Shown: piece by piece, positions 52,326 through 56,833 of the stretch
Numbering within the stretch: position 1 is the stretch's first letter
Layout of the letters: each line of letters opens with the position of its first letter
DNA from: an archaeon
GTDB taxonomy: Archaea > Nanobdellota > Nanobdellia > Pacearchaeales > GW2011-AR1
Assembly (NCBI GenBank): GCA_009992215.1
Contig: JAACWB010000006.1
Coordinates: forward strand, 1 to 62,518
Direction: 5' to 3'
DNA length: 62,518 bases
Program-made: the position numbers and the translations under genes
The notes under the pieces: model-generated
Databases searched by the model: none
Seen by the model: only the letters and a program-made list of their open reading frames with translations
Told to the model about the DNA's origin: nothing

Positions 52326-52372
52326 TTTGTCAAGAAAAGTGTATGAAATATACAAGTCTAAGGTATGTTATG
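52326..52372 (+). promoter_or_regulatory. conserved promoter/leader, copy 1 (before island ORF 1)
   Basis: tttgtcaagaaaagtgtatgaaatatacaagtctaaggtatgttATG. Confidence 0.55.
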
Positions 52373-52942
52373 GAATTAAATGAATGGAAAGATTCGATAA
52401 CCAAATATAAACAAATGGTTGAAGAAGGTTACAAGAATTGCGAGATACTTGTTTGTGAAGCTTCAAAAAAAGGAATTAATATTTTAGGAATTAATGGGGG
52501 AATTTTAGAAAATAAAATTTTGGTTGTTGGTGAGCATTTTTTAATGGATTCTGCAGAGATTAAAGAAGAATTGATTGAAAAAAATTGTAGTAAGATTAGT
52601 TATAATTTGATTTTAAATTTTTATGGAAATATAAAATTTAAGAAGCATGATAAAGACGAGGGAATAGCTAAGTTAATAACAAAAGATAAACCAGAATTAT
52701 TGGCAAGAATAATTGAAGAAGATGTAGATTATCATGAAATTGTTTATGGTCCTACTTGGTATAGAAAGATTGAATTAAATAAAAACTTGGATGATATTTG
52801 GATGTCATATTCACAAAAAGGTTTATCTGAAGATTTAATTTGCAAAGCGAAAAATGAGTTGAATGAATGGATTTTGGAAAATCCCGCTGGAAAAATGGAT
52901 ACAGGCATAATGGGGGTTCCCGAGAGGATGGATTATTTATGA
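52370..52942 (+). CDS. island ORF 1, hypothetical
   Basis: Start MELNEWKD follows the conserved leader. ATGA overlap with the next ORF. Confidence 0.55.
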   Translation: MELNEWKDSITKYKQMVEEGYKNCEILVCEASKKGINILGINGGILENKILVVGEHFLMDSAEIKEELIEKNCSKISYNLILNFYGNIKFKKHDKDEGIAKLITKDKPELLARIIEEDVDYHEIVYGPTWYRKIELNKNLDDIWMSYSQKGLSEDLICKAKNELNEWILENPAGKMDTGIMGVPERMDYL

Positions 52943-53478
52943 CTTACGAAAGACTATATGAAGAACTTTTTCATAATGACAAAGACAAATTTGAACTTAT
53001 GAAAAGAACTGCAAATGCTTTACTTTTACAATTCAAAGAACCATTGAAATATGATTTAACTATTCCTTCTTCAAAGAGTATTTTAAGATTATTAAATATT
53101 TTTCAAGATGGGCGGGAAGGAAAGATTATTTTTCCAGATAAAGTAAATTGTCTTTATCCGTCATATCAAGAGAAACCAATTAATTTTAATTTTAATCATA
53201 AATATTCTAAACGAGTTGAAGAAGGACTGAATTTATGTTTTGGTTTAAAGAGCAGGTATGACACTTTTCCTTTGGAACTTCATTTGAATTGGAATCCTGA
53301 AATTTTTGGAAACGAAGGATTTTTTTACCGTTTTAGAGAGGGAAAAAAAGAATATTTAGAAGTTCAAGTTGAAAATTATTTTAATGAAAATGAATTGAAA
53401 ATTTTTAGGGGAATTGGAAAATTTGCTCAACCTTACTTACAAAATTTAGATAAATCAGTAGTTTTGGAGAATTATTAA
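52939..53478 (+). CDS. island ORF 2, hypothetical
   Basis: Start MTYERLYEEL, coupled to its neighbours. Confidence 0.55.
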   Translation: MTYERLYEELFHNDKDKFELMKRTANALLLQFKEPLKYDLTIPSSKSILRLLNIFQDGREGKIIFPDKVNCLYPSYQEKPINFNFNHKYSKRVEEGLNLCFGLKSRYDTFPLELHLNWNPEIFGNEGFFYRFREGKKEYLEVQVENYFNENELKIFRGIGKFAQPYLQNLDKSVVLENY

Positions 53479-53479
53479 T

Positions 53480-53722
53480 ATGGAAGAAAAAGAAATGAAG
53501 ATTACAAAAATTGAAAGAGAATGTTTTTTTTATAACCATGGAAATAATCCTAATTTTGAATATCGTTGTCCTCTTGAGTATGGCGCGAGGTGTGAATTTT
53601 ATGATACTTTTTTTAGTGCTTATACAATTGATATTGATACAAAAGAACCTGTTAATTTAAAACCTGATTGTAGTGAATGTCCTGAAGAAAGAAAGAGGGG
53701 TCTTGAGGGGAGGATAGAATGA
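53480..53722 (+). CDS. island ORF 3, Cys-rich mini-protein (5 Cys)
   Basis: ECFFYNH..YRCPLEYGARCEFYD..PDCSECPEE. Confidence 0.55.
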   Translation: MEEKEMKITKIERECFFYNHGNNPNFEYRCPLEYGARCEFYDTFFSAYTIDIDTKEPVNLKPDCSECPEERKRGLEGRIE

Positions 53723-53937
53723 ATGAAGTAGATTTTTATAAATTAAATGTTAAAGATAAAATTCATCTTGAAAAACAAATGAATTTTTTTGAAGGATTAA
53801 TCGTGAAAGGATATGTAATTTCTGATTTGGGGTTTTCTAGTTTAAATGGAATTTATATTGGGAACATGAAATATTCTTTTGATGAAATTGATAAAGTTCC
53901 TGTTAAGGAAAATAAATTAGAGGAAGGCGTGAAATGA
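53719..53937 (+). CDS. island ORF 4, hypothetical
   Basis: ATGA overlaps on both sides. Ends ENKLEEGVK. Confidence 0.55.
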   Translation: MNEVDFYKLNVKDKIHLEKQMNFFEGLIVKGYVISDLGFSSLNGIYIGNMKYSFDEIDKVPVKENKLEEGVK

Positions 53938-54155
53938 GTGAAGAAAAATTTGATTTAAAATGCCCTTATGTTAAATTGATGGGAGAAGATTTGATGAGAA
54001 CTACTGAAGCTTATTTTCGTTGTCAAGCTAATTGTCGAGGAAGAGAACCTGGTGAATTTGGAGAACCTACTGATTATTATAAATGTGATTCAGAAAATTA
54101 TTTGAAATGTGGCTGGTATTTACGAGAAAATAAATTAGAGGAAGGCGTGAAATGA
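53934..54155 (+). CDS. island ORF 5, Cys-rich mini-protein (5 Cys)
   Basis: LKCPYV..FRCQANCRG..YKCDSENYLKCGWY. Ends ENKLEEGVK. Confidence 0.55.
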   Translation: MSEEKFDLKCPYVKLMGEDLMRTTEAYFRCQANCRGREPGEFGEPTDYYKCDSENYLKCGWYLRENKLEEGVK

Positions 54156-54757
54156 ATTTTGATAATTATTTAACTTATAATAAAAATAAATTAGATTTTT
54201 TAATTGAGGAAAAAACTTTTTGGGAAAAAGAATTAAGAAATGAAAAATTGTTTTTGAAATTTTTAAAAAATTGCAAATTTGTTATTGAAGAAATTGTTCC
54301 AAATAAAGAAACCAATGAAAGAAATAGAATGCACGGGGCAACAATTTATACTCCAGATTTTTCTGTTGTCAAGGATTTTAAGAGAGTAAAATTGTTTGAA
54401 AATCACTCAAATCCTTACAATAAAGAAACTTCTTTTAGTGCTGATTACAGAGGAAGAGAAATTACTAGCTTTTTTTCTGATATTGAAGTTGGAGGAATTA
54501 AACTTGATAAATATAATATTGTTTTAAGAAATCAAGAAATGAGTTTGAATGAATATGATTTAGTATTGAAAGGAAAACATTCTTGGGAAGGGGGTTATAG
54601 TAAAGATGAAAATGAAACTTATCTTAAAATAGGAGAGAAAAAAATTAAATATTTCAAAGAAAAAGGTATGCAAGAAAAACTTTTGAAAAAAATTGAACAT
54701 TATATTAAATGGTGGGCAGCAGGACTTGATCCCGATGAGGAGGATCCGAGGAAATAA
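54152..54757 (+). CDS. island ORF 6, hypothetical
   Basis: ORF of 201 aa. Confidence 0.55.
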   Translation: MNFDNYLTYNKNKLDFLIEEKTFWEKELRNEKLFLKFLKNCKFVIEEIVPNKETNERNRMHGATIYTPDFSVVKDFKRVKLFENHSNPYNKETSFSADYRGREITSFFSDIEVGGIKLDKYNIVLRNQEMSLNEYDLVLKGKHSWEGGYSKDENETYLKIGEKKIKYFKEKGMQEKLLKKIEHYIKWWAAGLDPDEEDPRK

Positions 54758-55438: not shown

Positions 55439-55498
55439 AAGAATAAAATTATTCTTCAGAACATGTAATTTTAAAAAATATGAAAACTAATAATAAAA

Positions 55499-56092
55499 AT
55501 GGAAATTGATGAAAAACATCTCTGGAAAAAAAGAATAGCTTTGGATATTGACGGAACGCTTTGGGATTTTTATGGCCCATTTTTTGAATTTTATAATAAT
55601 AAGTATGGAACAAATTATGATTTAACAGATTTCAATTGCGAGTTAGCTAAGTTACTTAATTTAACTCAAGAACAATTAAACGAGGAATTTAGGGAATTTG
55701 AGGGAACAGCATATTGTGAAGATTTGCCCCTTTATCCGAATGTTTCTGAAATCTTGTTAAAACTTAGTCAAAAATATTTTTTTGTTTTGATTACTGCAAA
55801 GGATTCAACACATAGGGAAGTTATTCGTGAACGATTAAAAAGAAAACTTCCGAAATTTGATTTTCCTATTTATTTTTCTGGAGATTATGTTGGTGCAGCT
55901 GGAGGAAAGGATGAAATTTGTCGTGAAATTGGTTGCGAGGCAATTATTGAAGATAATTTAGGTAATGCACTTAGTTGTGCTAACTCTGGAATAAAATCAA
56001 TTTTAGTTAATCGTTACTGGAATCAAGGAGGAGAACACGAAAATTTGGTTCGGGTTATGAGTTGGGATGAAGTTTTAGATTTATTTCCTTAA
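55499..56092 (+). CDS. HAD-superfamily 5'(3')-deoxyribonucleotidase-like (NT5C type)
   Basis: IALDIDGTLWDFYGPFFEFYN (DxDGT motif I) and later IIEDN. Confidence 0.65.
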   Translation: MEIDEKHLWKKRIALDIDGTLWDFYGPFFEFYNNKYGTNYDLTDFNCELAKLLNLTQEQLNEEFREFEGTAYCEDLPLYPNVSEILLKLSQKYFFVLITAKDSTHREVIRERLKRKLPKFDFPIYFSGDYVGAAGGKDEICREIGCEAIIEDNLGNALSCANSGIKSILVNRYWNQGGEHENLVRVMSWDEVLDLFP

Positions 56093-56197
56093 TTTTGTTT
56101 CTTTTTGTTTATTTTGAAATGTTCTCTCGACGAACACGTACCAAAGTACGCGTTGTCAATTGAAATTTCAAACTAATTCAAAAATAATTCAAAATAG
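56093..56197 (+). terminator. post-stop hairpin module, subtype 2, copy e
   Basis: Starts at the HAD stop. TTTGAAAT (56113..56120) pairs with ATTTCAAA (56165..56172). Inner hairpin ACGTAC CAAA GTACGC. Confidence 0.6.
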
Positions 56198-56217
56198 TTT
56201 GTAATAATTTTTTTAAT

Positions 56218-56284
56218 GAAATTAGTTTTATGACAAACTTTGTCAAGAAATAAGTATGAATTGTACAAGTCTTTGTTTATTATG
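56218..56284 (+). promoter_or_regulatory. conserved promoter/leader, copy 2 (before kinase)
   Basis: gaaattagttttatgacaaactttgtcaagaaataagtatgaattgtacaagtctttgtttattATG. Contains the palindrome TGACAAACTTTGTCA at 56231..56245. Confidence 0.6.
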
Positions 56285-56770
56285 GAGATAAACAAAATTC
56301 ATATTTTGGGACCTCCAGGAAGCGGGAAAACACATCTTGCAAAAGAATTATCCAATAAATTAAAATTGGATTATTTTGAATTAGATAACATTTCTTGGGA
56401 AATAAAATACAAAAAGAAGCGAGATATTTTTGAAAAACAAATTCTTTTGGAAAAAATAATTTTAAATAATAAATGGATTGTTGAAGGGGTTCAAACCTCT
56501 TTTATTCATAGTTCAATAAACAAAGCAGACAAAATAATTTTTTTAAATTTTAATTTTTTTATCTTATTTTATAGAATTTTTAGAAGGTATTTATTTAATA
56601 TTAAAAAAGAAAATTTTTTTAGAACAATTAATCTTGTTTGGATAGCGTTTAATTATAAAATAAAGAAGGGAAAATTTCAAATTTATAAAAATATTCTCAA
56701 TACATATGATAACATTGTTTATATCAAAACAAAAAAAGATTTGAAACTATTTTTATCTAGGTTGAATTAG
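56282..56770 (+). CDS. P-loop nucleoside/nucleotide kinase-like (adenylate kinase / topology-modulation family)
   Basis: MEINKIHILGPPGSGKTHLAKELS and NNKWIVEGV. Confidence 0.65.
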   Translation: MEINKIHILGPPGSGKTHLAKELSNKLKLDYFELDNISWEIKYKKKRDIFEKQILLEKIILNNKWIVEGVQTSFIHSSINKADKIIFLNFNFFILFYRIFRRYLFNIKKENFFRTINLVWIAFNYKIKKGKFQIYKNILNTYDNIVYIKTKKDLKLFLSRLN

Positions 56771-56833
56771 TTTTATGACAAAATTTGTCTAGAAATAAGT
56801 ATGAATTGTACAAGTCTTTGTTATATTATAATG
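56764..56833 (+). promoter_or_regulatory. conserved promoter/leader, copy 3 (before radical SAM)
   Basis: gaattagttttatgacaaaatttgtctagaaataagtatgaattgtacaagtctttgttatattataATG. Confidence 0.6.

What the first reader, a model, noticed from the sequence alone, without database searches (positions are those of the whole stretch)
52326..56833. One promoter/leader sequence is reused in front of three transcription units (orphan-ORF block, kinase, radical SAM)
Copies at 56218..56284 and 56764..56833 are nearly identical over about 62 nt (gaattagttttatgacaaaNtttgtcNagaaataagtatgaattgtacaagtctttgtt). A third copy at 52326..52372 keeps the core tttgtcaagaaaNaagtNtatgaaNtNtacaagtct. Each copy ends 0-10 nt before the ATG I consider the true start: MELNEWKD, MEINKIHILG and MACIEKIY. 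Copy 2 holds a perfect 15-nt palindrome, TGACAAACTTTGTCA, and copy 3 has one arm mutated. The internal ATG (ATGAATTGTACAAGTCT) is in frame with the downstream gene in copies 1 and 3 but out of frame in copy 2. This argues that conservation acts at the nucleic-acid level (operator, TATA box and 5' UTR) rather than on a peptide. A shared cis-element implies co-regulation of otherwise unrelated genes, which is what defines a functional system.
Basis: seen in the sequence. Interest (0 to 1): 0.72.

Follow-up and report, generated by a model that had tools for sequence, protein, structure and literature searches.

The report
Triplicated regulated promoter module in a DPANN archaeon
A roughly 55-base control sequence, which in related tiny archaea occurs once beside a conserved DNA-binding regulator gene, is present three times here because extra genes were inserted behind it; this is an ordinary kind of gene switch, seen in a little-studied group.

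Summary
Three same-strand copies of one element lie 9-13 nt upstream of the start codons of an orphan-ORF block, a small kinase and a radical SAM gene. None is expected by chance, and there are no further copies in the window.

Comparison with 12 distinct copies from relatives (Woese-/Pace-/Nanoarchaeota) shows what it is. It is the control region of a divergent gene pair, always next to a conserved 280-aa protein (51334-52179, minus strand). I find this protein to be TrmB-like: a winged helix plus a PLD-like domain. The ancestral order is regulator <-> element -> radical SAM. In this lineage about 4.4 kb was inserted between them, and the element now marks each junction.

The element has a canonical TATA box, then five ~11-bp phased units with a (T)GTACAA-like core, then the gene ATG. 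Units 2-3 form the TGACA-N5-TGTCA palindrome. No conserved RNA structure or peptide was found.

Best reading: this is an operator array of the TrmB-like regulator embedded in a compact promoter, duplicated during gene gain. One strain variant lacks the kinase and has a single hybrid copy. Co-regulation is plausible but unproven. The transcription start is unresolved, and copy 3 may not be an independent promoter. I file it as a new member of a known kind, of moderate interest.

The parts
51334..52179 (-). TrmB-like regulator (281 aa; N-terminal winged helix plus C-terminal PLD-like domain without an HKD motif). Candidate binder of the element.
   Evidence: Pfam gives only a weak HTH_11 match. 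There are 874+ homologues, all in DPANN archaea and all unannotated. The AF2 model has pLDDT 83. The top full-length Foldseek hits are TrmBL2 5bpd (E 1.7e-9), followed by PLD-fold nucleases. The gene is directly adjacent to and divergent from the element in all 9 relative lineages examined.
52285..52293 (+). TATA1 (TTTTATAAG), the canonical BRE/TATA of copy 1. It starts 28 nt upstream of the conserved ATG at 52314.
   Evidence: The PWM from 27 window promoters scores it 3.7, the 99th percentile of window positions. A forward match lies at -27..-32 from that ATG in 9 of the 11 copies scored, and by eye in L042. In 7 of 10 scored loci, and by eye in L042, the same box lies at -28/-29 from the regulator's ATG on the other strand. 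This suggests a bidirectional TATA.
52306..52360 (+). Copy 1 of the element. Five ~11-bp units: ATACAACTATG, TGTACACTTTT, TGTCAAGAAAA, GTGTATGAAAT, ATACAAGTCTA. The gene ATG is at 52370.
   Evidence: An orthologous copy with 85% identity is in MAG CAYSCL01.
52370..55438 (+). Block of ten small, tightly packed ORFs of unknown function, driven from copy 1. It is a lineage-specific insertion relative to the AR13-type relatives.
   Evidence: No Pfam, NCBIfam, PADLOC or PHROG families matched. P1, P2 and P6 are 50-63% identical to MAG orthologues, so they are real genes. The block is absent from the AR13, L026, L031-36 and L042 loci.
55499..56092 (+). HAD/NT5C-type nucleotidase with its own ordinary promoter. 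Not driven by the element.
   Evidence: Pfam NT5C. The PWM scores 3.9 at -29. A T-rich tract follows the stop codon.
56219..56273 (+). Copy 2. Unit 1 is degenerate (AAATTAGTTTT) and units 2-5 are intact. It contains the perfect palindrome TGACAAACTTTGTCA (56231-56245). The kinase ATG is at 56282.
   Evidence: An A/T-rich box (TTTGTAATAA, 56198) lies 41 nt upstream of TTTGTC, the same spacing as in c1, but it scores only -0.2. A better TATA match (7.5) lies 20 nt upstream of the unit-2 ATG.
56282..56770 (+). FlaR-like P-loop kinase (162 aa). A recently gained, strain-variable cassette bracketed by copies 2 and 3.
   Evidence: NCBIfam 'DNA topology modulation protein', 1e-20. The only relative outside its own 100%-identical cluster among 5.8e9 proteins is 48% identical. 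It is absent from contig L002, which carries one hybrid copy of the element and 2 SNPs in the 1250 nt that align downstream.
56765..56822 (+). Copy 3. A truncated duplicate (units 2-5 at 56775-56818) that begins inside the last two codons of the kinase. The palindrome has one mutated arm. The radical SAM ATG is at 56831.
   Evidence: Its 13-nt tail is 92% identical to the radical SAM leader of archaeon GW2011_AR13. Its units 2-5 are closer to c1 and MAG c1 (72-81%) than to AR13 (70%).
56831..57697 (+). Radical SAM protein (288 aa, MoaA-like fold). The ancestral first gene behind the element.
   Evidence: More than 600 homologues were found. The 119 listed relatives are 72-85% identical and nearly all are 288 aa. 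AF2 plus Foldseek gives MoaA at TM 0.63, then SkfB, EpeE and viperin. In AR13 and L024 it lies immediately downstream of the element.
57698..58297 (-). Metallophosphoesterase. A conserved neighbour of the locus.
   Evidence: Pfam Metallophos, 1e-20. It is syntenic in AR13, L024, L026, L033 and L036.
58451..58717 (+). Small winged-helix protein (88 aa). A second, weaker candidate binder.
   Evidence: Pfam HTH_27. It is present within a few kb in L026, L033 and L036 (60-89% identity) but not detected near AR13.

Best explanation
The element is the control region of a divergent gene pair that is conserved in one clade of DPANN archaea. On one side lies a TrmB-family regulator gene. On the other lies a variable set of 'cargo' genes, ancestrally a MoaA-like radical SAM enzyme, often with nucleotide kinases and phosphohydrolases.

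The region has three parts. First comes one canonical TATA box, placed about 28-29 nt from the regulator's start codon on one strand. On the other strand it lies about 27-32 nt, mostly 28-30, from a conserved ATG. Next come five helically phased ~11-bp units with a (T)GTACAA-like core; units 2 and 3 together make the TGACA-N5-TGTCA palindrome. The first cargo gene's ATG follows 9-13 nt after unit 5.

I infer that an oligomer of the TrmB-like protein binds this array. The array lies downstream of the TATA box and over the start region, so binding most likely blocks RNA polymerase (repression), and a ligand bound to the PLD-like domain would relieve it.

In this lineage genes were inserted behind the element: first the orphan block plus HAD, later the kinase. 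Each insertion left a copy of the element at the junction, so units 2-5 now precede three genes. All three copies would be read by the same regulator, which gives co-regulation.

What is shown: the repeats, their homology to a single-copy ancestral region, strict linkage to the regulator gene, purifying selection, the TrmB-like fold, the promoter geometry, and the kinase presence/absence variant. What is inferred: binding, the sign of regulation, the transcription start site, and the insertion mechanism.
For: - Three copies only, far beyond chance.
- Twelve distinct copies from ten lineages align from the TATA box to the ATG. Each relative locus has exactly one copy, always next to the 280-aa regulator. 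The four more distant radical SAM loci without the regulator lack it.
- The ancestral synteny regulator <-> radical SAM is seen in AR13 and L024. Cargo varies in L026, L031-36 and L042.
- Between window and MAG, the element is 85% identical, the spacer 35% and the P1 gene about 52%.
- The regulator fold matches TrmBL2 over its full length (E 1.7e-9) and has a PLD-like domain.
- TrmBL1 binds a 6-N5-6 palindrome. It represses when bound downstream of the TATA box and activates when bound upstream (PMC4706686).
- The genome's default is leaderless, with the TATA box at -29/-28.
- TATA1 lies at -27..-32 from the conserved ATG, and at -28/-29 from the regulator's ATG.
- Periodicity of 11-12 and 23 nt, with z of 2.7-3.2.
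- No conserved RNA structure.
- Units 2-5 of c2/c3 resemble this lineage's c1 more than AR13's copy, while the c3 tail matches AR13's radical SAM leader.
- Contig L002 lacks the kinase and has one hybrid copy.
Against: - No binding or expression data exist.
- The palindrome is only partly conserved. The inner ACA..TGT pairs hold, but the outer two pairs are kept in 4-5 of 11 copies, and there is no covariation beyond shuffles.
- The periodicity signal is modest (z about 3).
- c3 lacks TATA1, and c2 has it only in degenerate or mis-spaced form. These copies may therefore not be promoters in their own right.
- Unit 4 sits at -28 to -32 (most often -29) from the first gene's ATG in the nine short-spacer copies, in front of unrelated genes. 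All four long-spacer copies carry a strong Shine-Dalgarno sequence, and most short ones carry none. This argues for a start site just after unit 5, which would place the array upstream of and over the promoter (activator or occluder geometry). So the sign of regulation is open.
- TrmBL2, the best structural match, is a chromatin protein with low sequence specificity.
- The whole genome of this organism could not be scanned.
- L002 could in principle be an assembly chimera across the 32-nt identical stretch.
Confidence: 0.6

Rival explanations
1. Only the copy next to the regulator (c1, perhaps also c2) is functional. c3, and possibly c2, are passive by-products of recent short-homology insertion/deletion events in an indel-prone region. 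The radical SAM gene is simply co-transcribed with the kinase, so the shared sequence implies no extra regulation.
For: - c2 and c3 differ at only 2 of 58 positions, so they are young.
- c3 starts inside the kinase's last codons and has no canonical TATA box in the repeat unit.
- In relatives the radical SAM gene overlaps or abuts the upstream kinase/CYTH genes without a promoter of its own.
- The same region holds two other junction duplications: a 30-nt perfect repeat bracketing ORF P5, and a 66-nt duplication in P9 that is absent from contig L013.
- The kinase is strain-variable.
Against: - c1 and c2/c3 are old enough to have diverged (66% over 58 nt), yet they keep the same core blocks and the same distance to the ATG.
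- Units 2-5 of c3 track this lineage's c1 rather than the AR13 orthologue. That is expected if they must fit this genome's regulator.
- Both c2/c3 differences fall inside the palindrome and nowhere else.
Confidence: 0.2
2. The element acts mainly as RNA. Transcription starts at the conserved ATG of unit 1/2. A short leaderless upstream ORF (5-10 codons) is translated, and expression of the first gene depends on termination-reinitiation, or on a protein that binds the unstructured leader.
For: - TATA1 lies at the standard leaderless distance from an ATG that is conserved in 11 of 12 copies. Each opens a 5-10-codon ORF.
- In c1 and the MAG the uORF stop overlaps the next ATG (ATGA), which is in frame with the gene.
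- The fixed 9-13-nt distance from unit 5 to the gene ATG would fit a translational constraint.
Against: - uORF length, frame and peptide are not conserved, and L036 lacks the ATG.
- There is no consensus structure and no Rfam match, and single-sequence folds are weak, with z from -1.4 to -2.1.
- The ATG may simply be part of the unit boundary (TATG|TGTACA).
Confidence: 0.1
3. The element is a recombination site of a cassette-capture platform (integron-like). Gene cassettes are inserted directly behind a regulated promoter, and the repeats are the recombination junctions.
For: - Cargo directly behind the element differs in nearly every lineage.
- The kinase is bracketed by 58-nt repeats and is absent in one strain.
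- The 4.4-kb insert is bracketed by c1 and c3.
- P5 is bracketed by 30-nt repeats.
- MAG contigs break exactly at the element with a 55-nt overlap.
Against: - No integrase or recombinase domain was found in or near the locus.
- Relatives with different cargo have a single copy and no flanking repeats.
- The repeats have no attC-like structure.
- Ordinary homologous or short-homology recombination explains each event.
Confidence: 0.07

Closest known systems
TrmB/TrmBL1 regulators and the Thermococcales glycolytic motif (TGM, TATCAC-N5-GTGATA)
   Same: - Archaeal regulator with a winged helix plus a PLD-like effector domain.
- Inverted-repeat site with a 5-nt spacer placed at the core promoter.
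- Outcome depends on position: downstream of the TATA box gives repression, upstream gives activation (PMC4706686).
- Full-length structural match to a family member.
   Different: - No sequence-level match to the Pfam TrmB model. About 16% identity to TrmBL2.
- The half-site sequence is different (TGACA / GTACA).
- The site is embedded in five phased direct units rather than being a lone palindrome.
- The host is a DPANN archaeon and the cargo is not sugar metabolism.
- Nothing has been tested biochemically.
TrmBL2, the chromatin protein of Thermococcales
   Same: Best structural match over the full length (5bpd). It also lacks a sugar-binding function, and it polymerises along DNA, which would fit a phased multi-unit array.
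   Different: TrmBL2 is abundant and binds with little sequence specificity across the genome. Here the protein's gene is tied to one specific conserved site at its own divergent promoter, which is typical of a local regulator.
Divergent (bidirectional) archaeal promoters with an autoregulated local transcription factor
   Same: - Regulator and target are transcribed divergently from an intergenic region of about 105-135 bp.
- A single A/T box lies at -28/-29 for both directions.
- The operator lies between the two genes.
   Different: Here the target side is highly variable in gene content. In this genome the operator part has been copied to two further gene starts.
Integron platform (Pc promoter, attI, attC cassettes)
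   Same: Variable genes sit directly behind one conserved promoter region. Direct repeats bracket a gene that is present or absent between strains.
   Different: There is no integrase and no attC-like folded sites. The repeats are copies of the promoter/operator itself. Most relatives have one copy only.

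Membership tests
TrmB-family transcription regulator (protein 51334-52179) | N-terminal winged helix-turn-helix DNA-binding domain | tested here: met
   Weak Pfam HTH_11 match at residues 18-53. The AF2 model shows the helices and the wing. TrmBL2 aligns over 273 columns.
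TrmB-family transcription regulator (protein 51334-52179) | C-terminal PLD-like (non-catalytic) effector domain | tested here: met
   Foldseek hits to Nuc, NucT, Zucchini and PLDs for the C-terminal 170-190 residues. Weak PADLOC DrmC/MkoB hits. No H-x-K-x4-D motif is seen in the sequence.
TrmB-family transcription regulator (protein 51334-52179) | Match to the family's sequence models (Pfam TrmB PF01978 / Regulator_TrmB) | tested here: not met
   No Pfam, NCBIfam or PDB sequence hit to TrmB at E<=0.01. The similarity is structural only.
TrmB-family transcription regulator (protein 51334-52179) | Sequence-specific binding to a palindromic operator, modulated by a small ligand | not testable with these tools
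   Needs EMSA or footprinting with purified protein.
TGM-type operator | Inverted repeat with a 5-nt spacer at the core promoter | tested here: inconclusive
   TGACA-N5-TGTCA is perfect in c2 and the MAG copy. Across 11 copies the inner 3 pairs are kept in 82-100% of copies and the outer 2 pairs in 36-45% (4-5 of 11). There is no excess over shuffles.
TGM-type operator | Consensus TATCAC-N5-GTGATA | tested here: not met
   The half-sites here are TGACA/GTACA.
Archaeal BRE/TATA core promoter | BRE/TATA match at -29/-28 from a leaderless start (the geometry of this genome) | tested here: inconclusive
   The geometry was established on 43 genes. TATA1 meets it relative to the conserved upstream ATG for c1 and for 9 of the 11 copies scored. 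Unit 4, at -28 to -32 (most often -29) from the gene ATGs, scores -0.2 to -2.3, below all 27 reference promoters. c3 has no TATA1 in the repeat.
Structured cis-regulatory RNA (riboswitch or leader) | Conserved secondary structure with covariation, or a match to a known family | tested here: not met
   No Rfam hit. RNAalifold predicts no consensus pairs. Single-sequence folds differ, with z from -1.4 to -2.1.
Dispersed repeat / MITE | Many copies unrelated to gene starts, with terminal inverted repeats | tested here: not met
   Three copies in 62.5 kb, all 9-13 nt upstream of an ATG. One copy per relative locus across 423 kb of loci. The strict pattern occurs in only one other GTDB species representative, at the orthologous site. 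The complete genome was not available.
Integron-like cassette platform | Site-specific recombinase adjacent to the platform, and attC-type sites | tested here: not met
   No recombinase domains in ten locus proteins and the ten small ORFs. No folded repeat structure.

The most novel reading that the evidence does not exclude
The regulator-plus-element module is a dedicated gene-capture site. New genes are repeatedly inserted directly behind one ligand-controlled promoter, by recombination at the element or at start-site junctions. This leaves junction duplicates (58 nt at the kinase, 30 nt at P5, and c1/c3 around the 4.4-kb block). It would give genome-reduced DPANN archaea an integron-like way to try out and co-regulate accessory genes without an integrase of a known type.
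Probability: 0.1. Interest if true: 0.7.

Novelty: new member of a known kind. Interest (0 to 1): 0.4.

Why it matters
Almost nothing is known about transcription control in DPANN archaea, because none of these lineages is genetically tractable. This locus offers three things:
- a concrete, testable pair: an unannotated TrmB-like protein found in more than 870 clusters, and a conserved ~55-bp site;
- a clear picture of promoter geometry in such a genome (leaderless, TATA box at -29/-28, one box apparently serving both directions);
- a natural experiment in which the same control region has been copied in front of newly acquired genes.

It also links a very conserved but uncharacterised MoaA-like radical SAM enzyme to a regulated, nucleotide-flavoured gene neighbourhood. 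The principle, a local regulator with a duplicated operator/promoter, is ordinary.

Tried and rejected
- Known RNA family or structured leader. Rfam at gathering and at E<=10 gave nothing, and RNAalifold and single-sequence folds found no conserved structure. Rejected.
- Conserved N-terminal or leader peptide starting at the internal ATG (MNCTSL/MKYTSL). The ATG is in frame in c1, c3 and the MAG, but out of frame in c2 and L036. Nearly all listed radical SAM homologues are 288 aa. Rejected.
- Viral or mobile origin of the element or the orphan block.
  - The IMG/VR scan of the motif hit only one unrelated phage coding sequence.
  - P1 has no relative in IMG/VR.
  - PHROGs found nothing.
- Defence system or viperin reading of radical SAM plus kinase. 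PADLOC has no hit for the radical SAM protein. Its fold is closest to MoaA, and viperin ranks only 25th or lower. Not supported; left open as 'acts on a nucleotide'.
- Palindrome covariation as evidence for a hairpin or a co-evolving operator. No excess over shuffles.
- Scans of the GTDB species representatives and the JGI metagenomes for the strict 21-base pattern. These found only the orthologous c1 of one Woesearchaeota MAG and a contig of the same population.
- Finding relatives of the kinase to trace its origin. Apart from its own 100%-identical cluster, the only hit is one 48%-identical partial match.

Full report
**1. The observation**

The three copies are real.
- c2 (56220-56277) and c3 (56765-56822) are 56/58 identical. 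With one gap they match over 65 nt.
- c1 matches the 34-nt core TTTGTCAAGAAA-nnn-GTATGAA-nTn-TACAAGTCT at 29/34 without indels.
- Shuffles predict no such matches. The 34-mer gave 0.00 expected, and the 19-mer gave 0.30 expected against 3 found.
- A nhmmer profile built later from 11 copies finds exactly these three sites in the 62.5-kb window, with E from 3e-10 to 4e-18.

**2. The organism and its default promoter**

The window is 29% G+C and archaeal. It encodes TFS, an archaeal-type topoisomerase and Hsp20. The nearest database relatives are labelled Woesearchaeota, Pacearchaeota or Nanoarchaeia.

For the 43 genes with at least 60 nt of upstream spacer, TATA-like heptamers pile up sharply at -29/-28 from the ATG. 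Leaderless or near-leaderless mRNAs are therefore the rule. Genes inside operons have GGAGGT-like Shine-Dalgarno (SD) sequences.

**3. Where the element comes from**

The radical SAM protein has more than 600 homologues. The 119 listed relatives are 72-85% identical, and nearly all are exactly 288 aa and begin MACIEK. This fixes its start at 56831.

The gene order in relatives shows the ancestral arrangement:
- In archaeon GW2011_AR13 and L024 the order is topoisomerase, 281-aa wHTH gene (minus strand), 128 nt, radical SAM, metallophosphoesterase.
- That 128-nt spacer carries the element...ATACAACACTAATGACAAAATTTGTGCAGTAAAGTAAATCAAAAATACAACTCTTTGATATATTATA..., followed by an SD leader and ATGGCATGT.
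- Seven further lineages (L026, L031, L032, L033/34, L035, L036-41, L042-45) and a Woesearchaeota MAG (CAYSCL01) all have one copy. It is always directly next to, and divergent from, the ~280-aa gene.
- Four more distant radical SAM loci without that gene lack the element.

What follows the element varies between lineages:
- radical SAM alone;
- AAA_28 kinase, with or without CYTH, then radical SAM, with or without a second radical SAM;
- three small ORFs and no radical SAM (L036);
- a 115-aa protein, a different 291-aa radical SAM and a 573-aa protein (L042);
- in this window and the MAG, the orphan block.

The window therefore has about 4.4 kb (52370-56770) inserted between the ancestral element and the radical SAM gene. 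Copies of the element now sit at the left end (c1), in front of the kinase (c2), and at the radical SAM gene (c3).

**4. Selection on the element**

Between this window and the MAG:
- the regulator's coding DNA is 83% identical;
- the spacer between its ATG and the TATA box is 35% identical;
- the 88 nt from the TATA box to the gene ATG are 85% identical;
- the downstream P1 gene is about 52% identical.

The element is thus under stronger constraint than the gene it precedes.

**5. Anatomy of the element**

Aligning 12 distinct copies gives this order.
- **TATA box.** A canonical TATA box (TATA1) comes first, followed by about 20 nt.
- **Unit 1.** ATACAAC(AC)TATG.
- **Unit 2.** TGTACA / TGACAA plus a T-run.
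- **Unit 3.** TGTCAAG / TGTACAA plus AGAAA.
- **Unit 4.** GTGTATGAA / AAGTATATAG.
- **Unit 5.** (A/T)TACAA(G/C)TCT.
- **Gene start.** Either the gene ATG follows 9-13 nt later, or there is a further 20-30 nt that always contains GAGGT or GGGGT.

Written in rows of 11 nt the units line up. Autocorrelation peaks at 11, 12 and 23 nt, with z of 3.2, 2.7 and 2.7. Only its inner ACA...TGT is well conserved, and there is no covariation beyond shuffles.

c2 keeps units 2-5 and has a degenerate unit 1. c3 is a truncated copy that begins inside the kinase's last two codons.

Sequence comparison places c2 and c3:
- Over units 2-5, c2/c3 are closer to c1 and MAG c1 (72-84%) than to AR13 (67-70%).
- The 13-nt tail of c3 is 92% identical to AR13's radical SAM leader.

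c3 is therefore the original radical SAM leader. Its operator part has either been copied from, or has co-evolved with, this lineage's version.

**6. Not an RNA element and not a peptide**

- Rfam finds nothing.
- RNAalifold predicts no shared pairs.
- Single-sequence folds differ and are barely better than shuffles.
- Two small ATG-ORFs occur in most copies, but their lengths, frames and peptides are not conserved.

**7. The neighbouring protein**

The 281-aa protein has 874+ homologues, all in DPANN archaea and all unannotated. It has no Pfam match beyond a weak HTH_11.

An AF2 model (pLDDT 83) matches TrmBL2 over its full length (5bpd, E 1.7e-9). Its C-terminal half matches PLD-fold proteins. 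I see no HKD motif in the sequence. This is the TrmB-family architecture.

For TrmBL1 the site is a 6-N5-6 palindrome. [quoted passage not shown]

**8. Where transcription starts is unresolved**

I built a PWM from 27 promoters in this window. Two start sites remain possible.

*Evidence for a start at the conserved upstream ATG:*
- TATA1 scores 2.4-7.7 in the forward direction at -27..-32 from the conserved ATG at the unit 1/2 boundary. This holds in 9 of the 11 copies scored, and by eye in L042.
- In 7 of 10 scored loci, and by eye in L042, the same box lies at -28/-29 from the regulator's ATG on the other strand. It looks like a bidirectional TATA box.
- This predicts a start at 52313-52316. 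The array would then lie at about -8 to +47, which is the repressor geometry.

*Evidence for a start at the gene ATG:*
- Unit 4 lies at -28 to -32 (most often -29) from the first gene's ATG in all nine short-spacer copies, in front of unrelated genes.
- All four long-spacer copies carry a strong SD, and most short ones carry none.
- This is what one expects if the start is just after unit 5, with leaderless mRNAs.
- However, unit 4 scores only -0.2 to -2.3, below every reference promoter. It would need help from a factor.

c3 has no TATA1 in its repeat unit, and c2 has only mis-spaced or weak candidates. I therefore commit to 'operator array of the TrmB-like regulator embedded in a compact promoter'. 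Repression by occlusion is the more likely sign. The start site is left for experiment.

**9. How the copies arose**

- Contig L002, from another sample, runs from the HAD gene through the intergenic region into a single element. That element has c2's left side and c3's right side, and it leads straight into the radical SAM gene. L002 has two SNPs relative to the window in the 1250 nt that align from c3 onwards, so it is probably a real strain variant.
- The kinase has no relative above 48% identity outside its own cluster among 5.8 billion proteins.
- The same region contains a 30-nt perfect repeat that brackets ORF P5, and a 66-nt duplication in P9 that another contig lacks.

Short-homology insertion/deletion is therefore frequent here. 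The element copies are best seen as junction duplicates of such events. Whether L002 represents the ancestral state or a later deletion cannot be told.

**10. Function of the locus**

- The radical SAM protein folds most like MoaA (TM 0.63). SkfB, EpeE and viperin rank lower.
- Its recurrent neighbours are AAA_28 kinases, CYTH, HD and metallophosphoesterases. In this window they are an NT5C-type nucleotidase and a FlaR-like kinase.
- This points to nucleotide chemistry, but it is inference only.
- The orphan block has no family matches.

**11. Verdict**

The repeat is real and regulatory in origin, and the adjacent wHTH protein is a well-founded candidate binder. However, the three copies are duplicates of one ancestral control region, not independent recruits. 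Independent promoter activity of c3 is unproven, and the cargo is variable.

This is a new member of a known kind, a local TrmB-like regulator with its operator/promoter. It is of moderate interest, mainly because it gives a testable handle on DPANN transcription. The cassette-capture reading is not excluded, but it lacks a recombinase.

Noticed in passing
window 22973, 22991, 30174, 39358, 41085, 41103, 41215, 41224, 52232, 61144: The G+C-rich motif CCCGCCCWA occurs 10 times, against 0.1 expected. Every copy is on the + strand, and those I checked against the ORF list lie in intergenic DNA, often as pairs about 9-18 nt apart. One copy lies in the 105-nt spacer between the regulator's ATG and TATA1 of copy 1. 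This is a separate, strand-biased intergenic signal of unknown role.
   Followed up: partly
window 53908-53937 and 54126-54155: A 30-nt perfect direct repeat brackets the 73-aa ORF P5. The repeat covers the last 9 codons, the stop codon and the overlapping ATGA start of the next gene. P4 and P5 are otherwise unrelated, and both are missing from the related MAG (L011). This is the same 'gene plus duplicated junction' pattern as at the kinase.
   Followed up: partly
window 55144-55236 (ORF 55099-55266); L013: A 66-nt internal duplication in this small ORF repeats the peptide FSPYDLNQ. It is absent from contig L013, which comes from the same sample as L004. This is a strain-level indel between 27-nt repeats.
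   Followed up: partly
window 54759-54911, 55099-55266; L011 about 300-620: Several of the small ORFs carry a YDLN(E/Q/K)... motif, with YDLN(E/Q)VGG a few residues from the C-terminus. The motif also occurs in the MAG's counterpart. It is reminiscent of repeated peptide motifs or double-glycine sites. Function unknown.
   Followed up: no
window 56831-57697 and loci L021-L035: The 288-aa radical SAM protein is unusually conserved across DPANN lineages: the listed relatives are 72-85% identical and nearly all the same length. It has four invariant cysteines beyond the CX3CX2C motif (C3, C85, C231, C286). It folds like MoaA and recurs with AAA_28, CYTH, HD, metallophosphoesterase and a second 266-aa radical SAM. 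It is an uncharacterised, probably nucleotide-acting enzyme family.
   Followed up: partly
window 56282-56770: Among 5.8 billion clustered proteins the FlaR-like kinase matches only its own cluster and one other protein (48% identity over half its length). It is effectively an orphan, despite a common fold.
   Followed up: yes
L012 1-55 and L011 2416-2470 (MAG CAYSCL01 contigs 1 and 49): The two MAG contigs end and begin exactly in the element and overlap by 55 nt. The assembly graph therefore branches on both sides of the element. This hints that the element is repeated or strain-variable in that population too.
   Followed up: no
window 50793-51299 (minus strand): The 168-aa protein downstream of the regulator starts MEIEKKYII, which resembles the EXEXK signature of CYTH triphosphate-tunnel enzymes. 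Pfam gives no hit. It is syntenic in the MAG and in L036-type loci.
   Followed up: no
window 56127-56158 and 58877-58916: These are short G+C-rich inverted-repeat islands (for example ACGAACACGTAC-caaa-GTACGCGTTGT) in otherwise A+T-rich spacers. One lies after the HAD gene and one lies upstream of the TFS gene. They may be terminator hairpins or small-RNA features.
   Followed up: no
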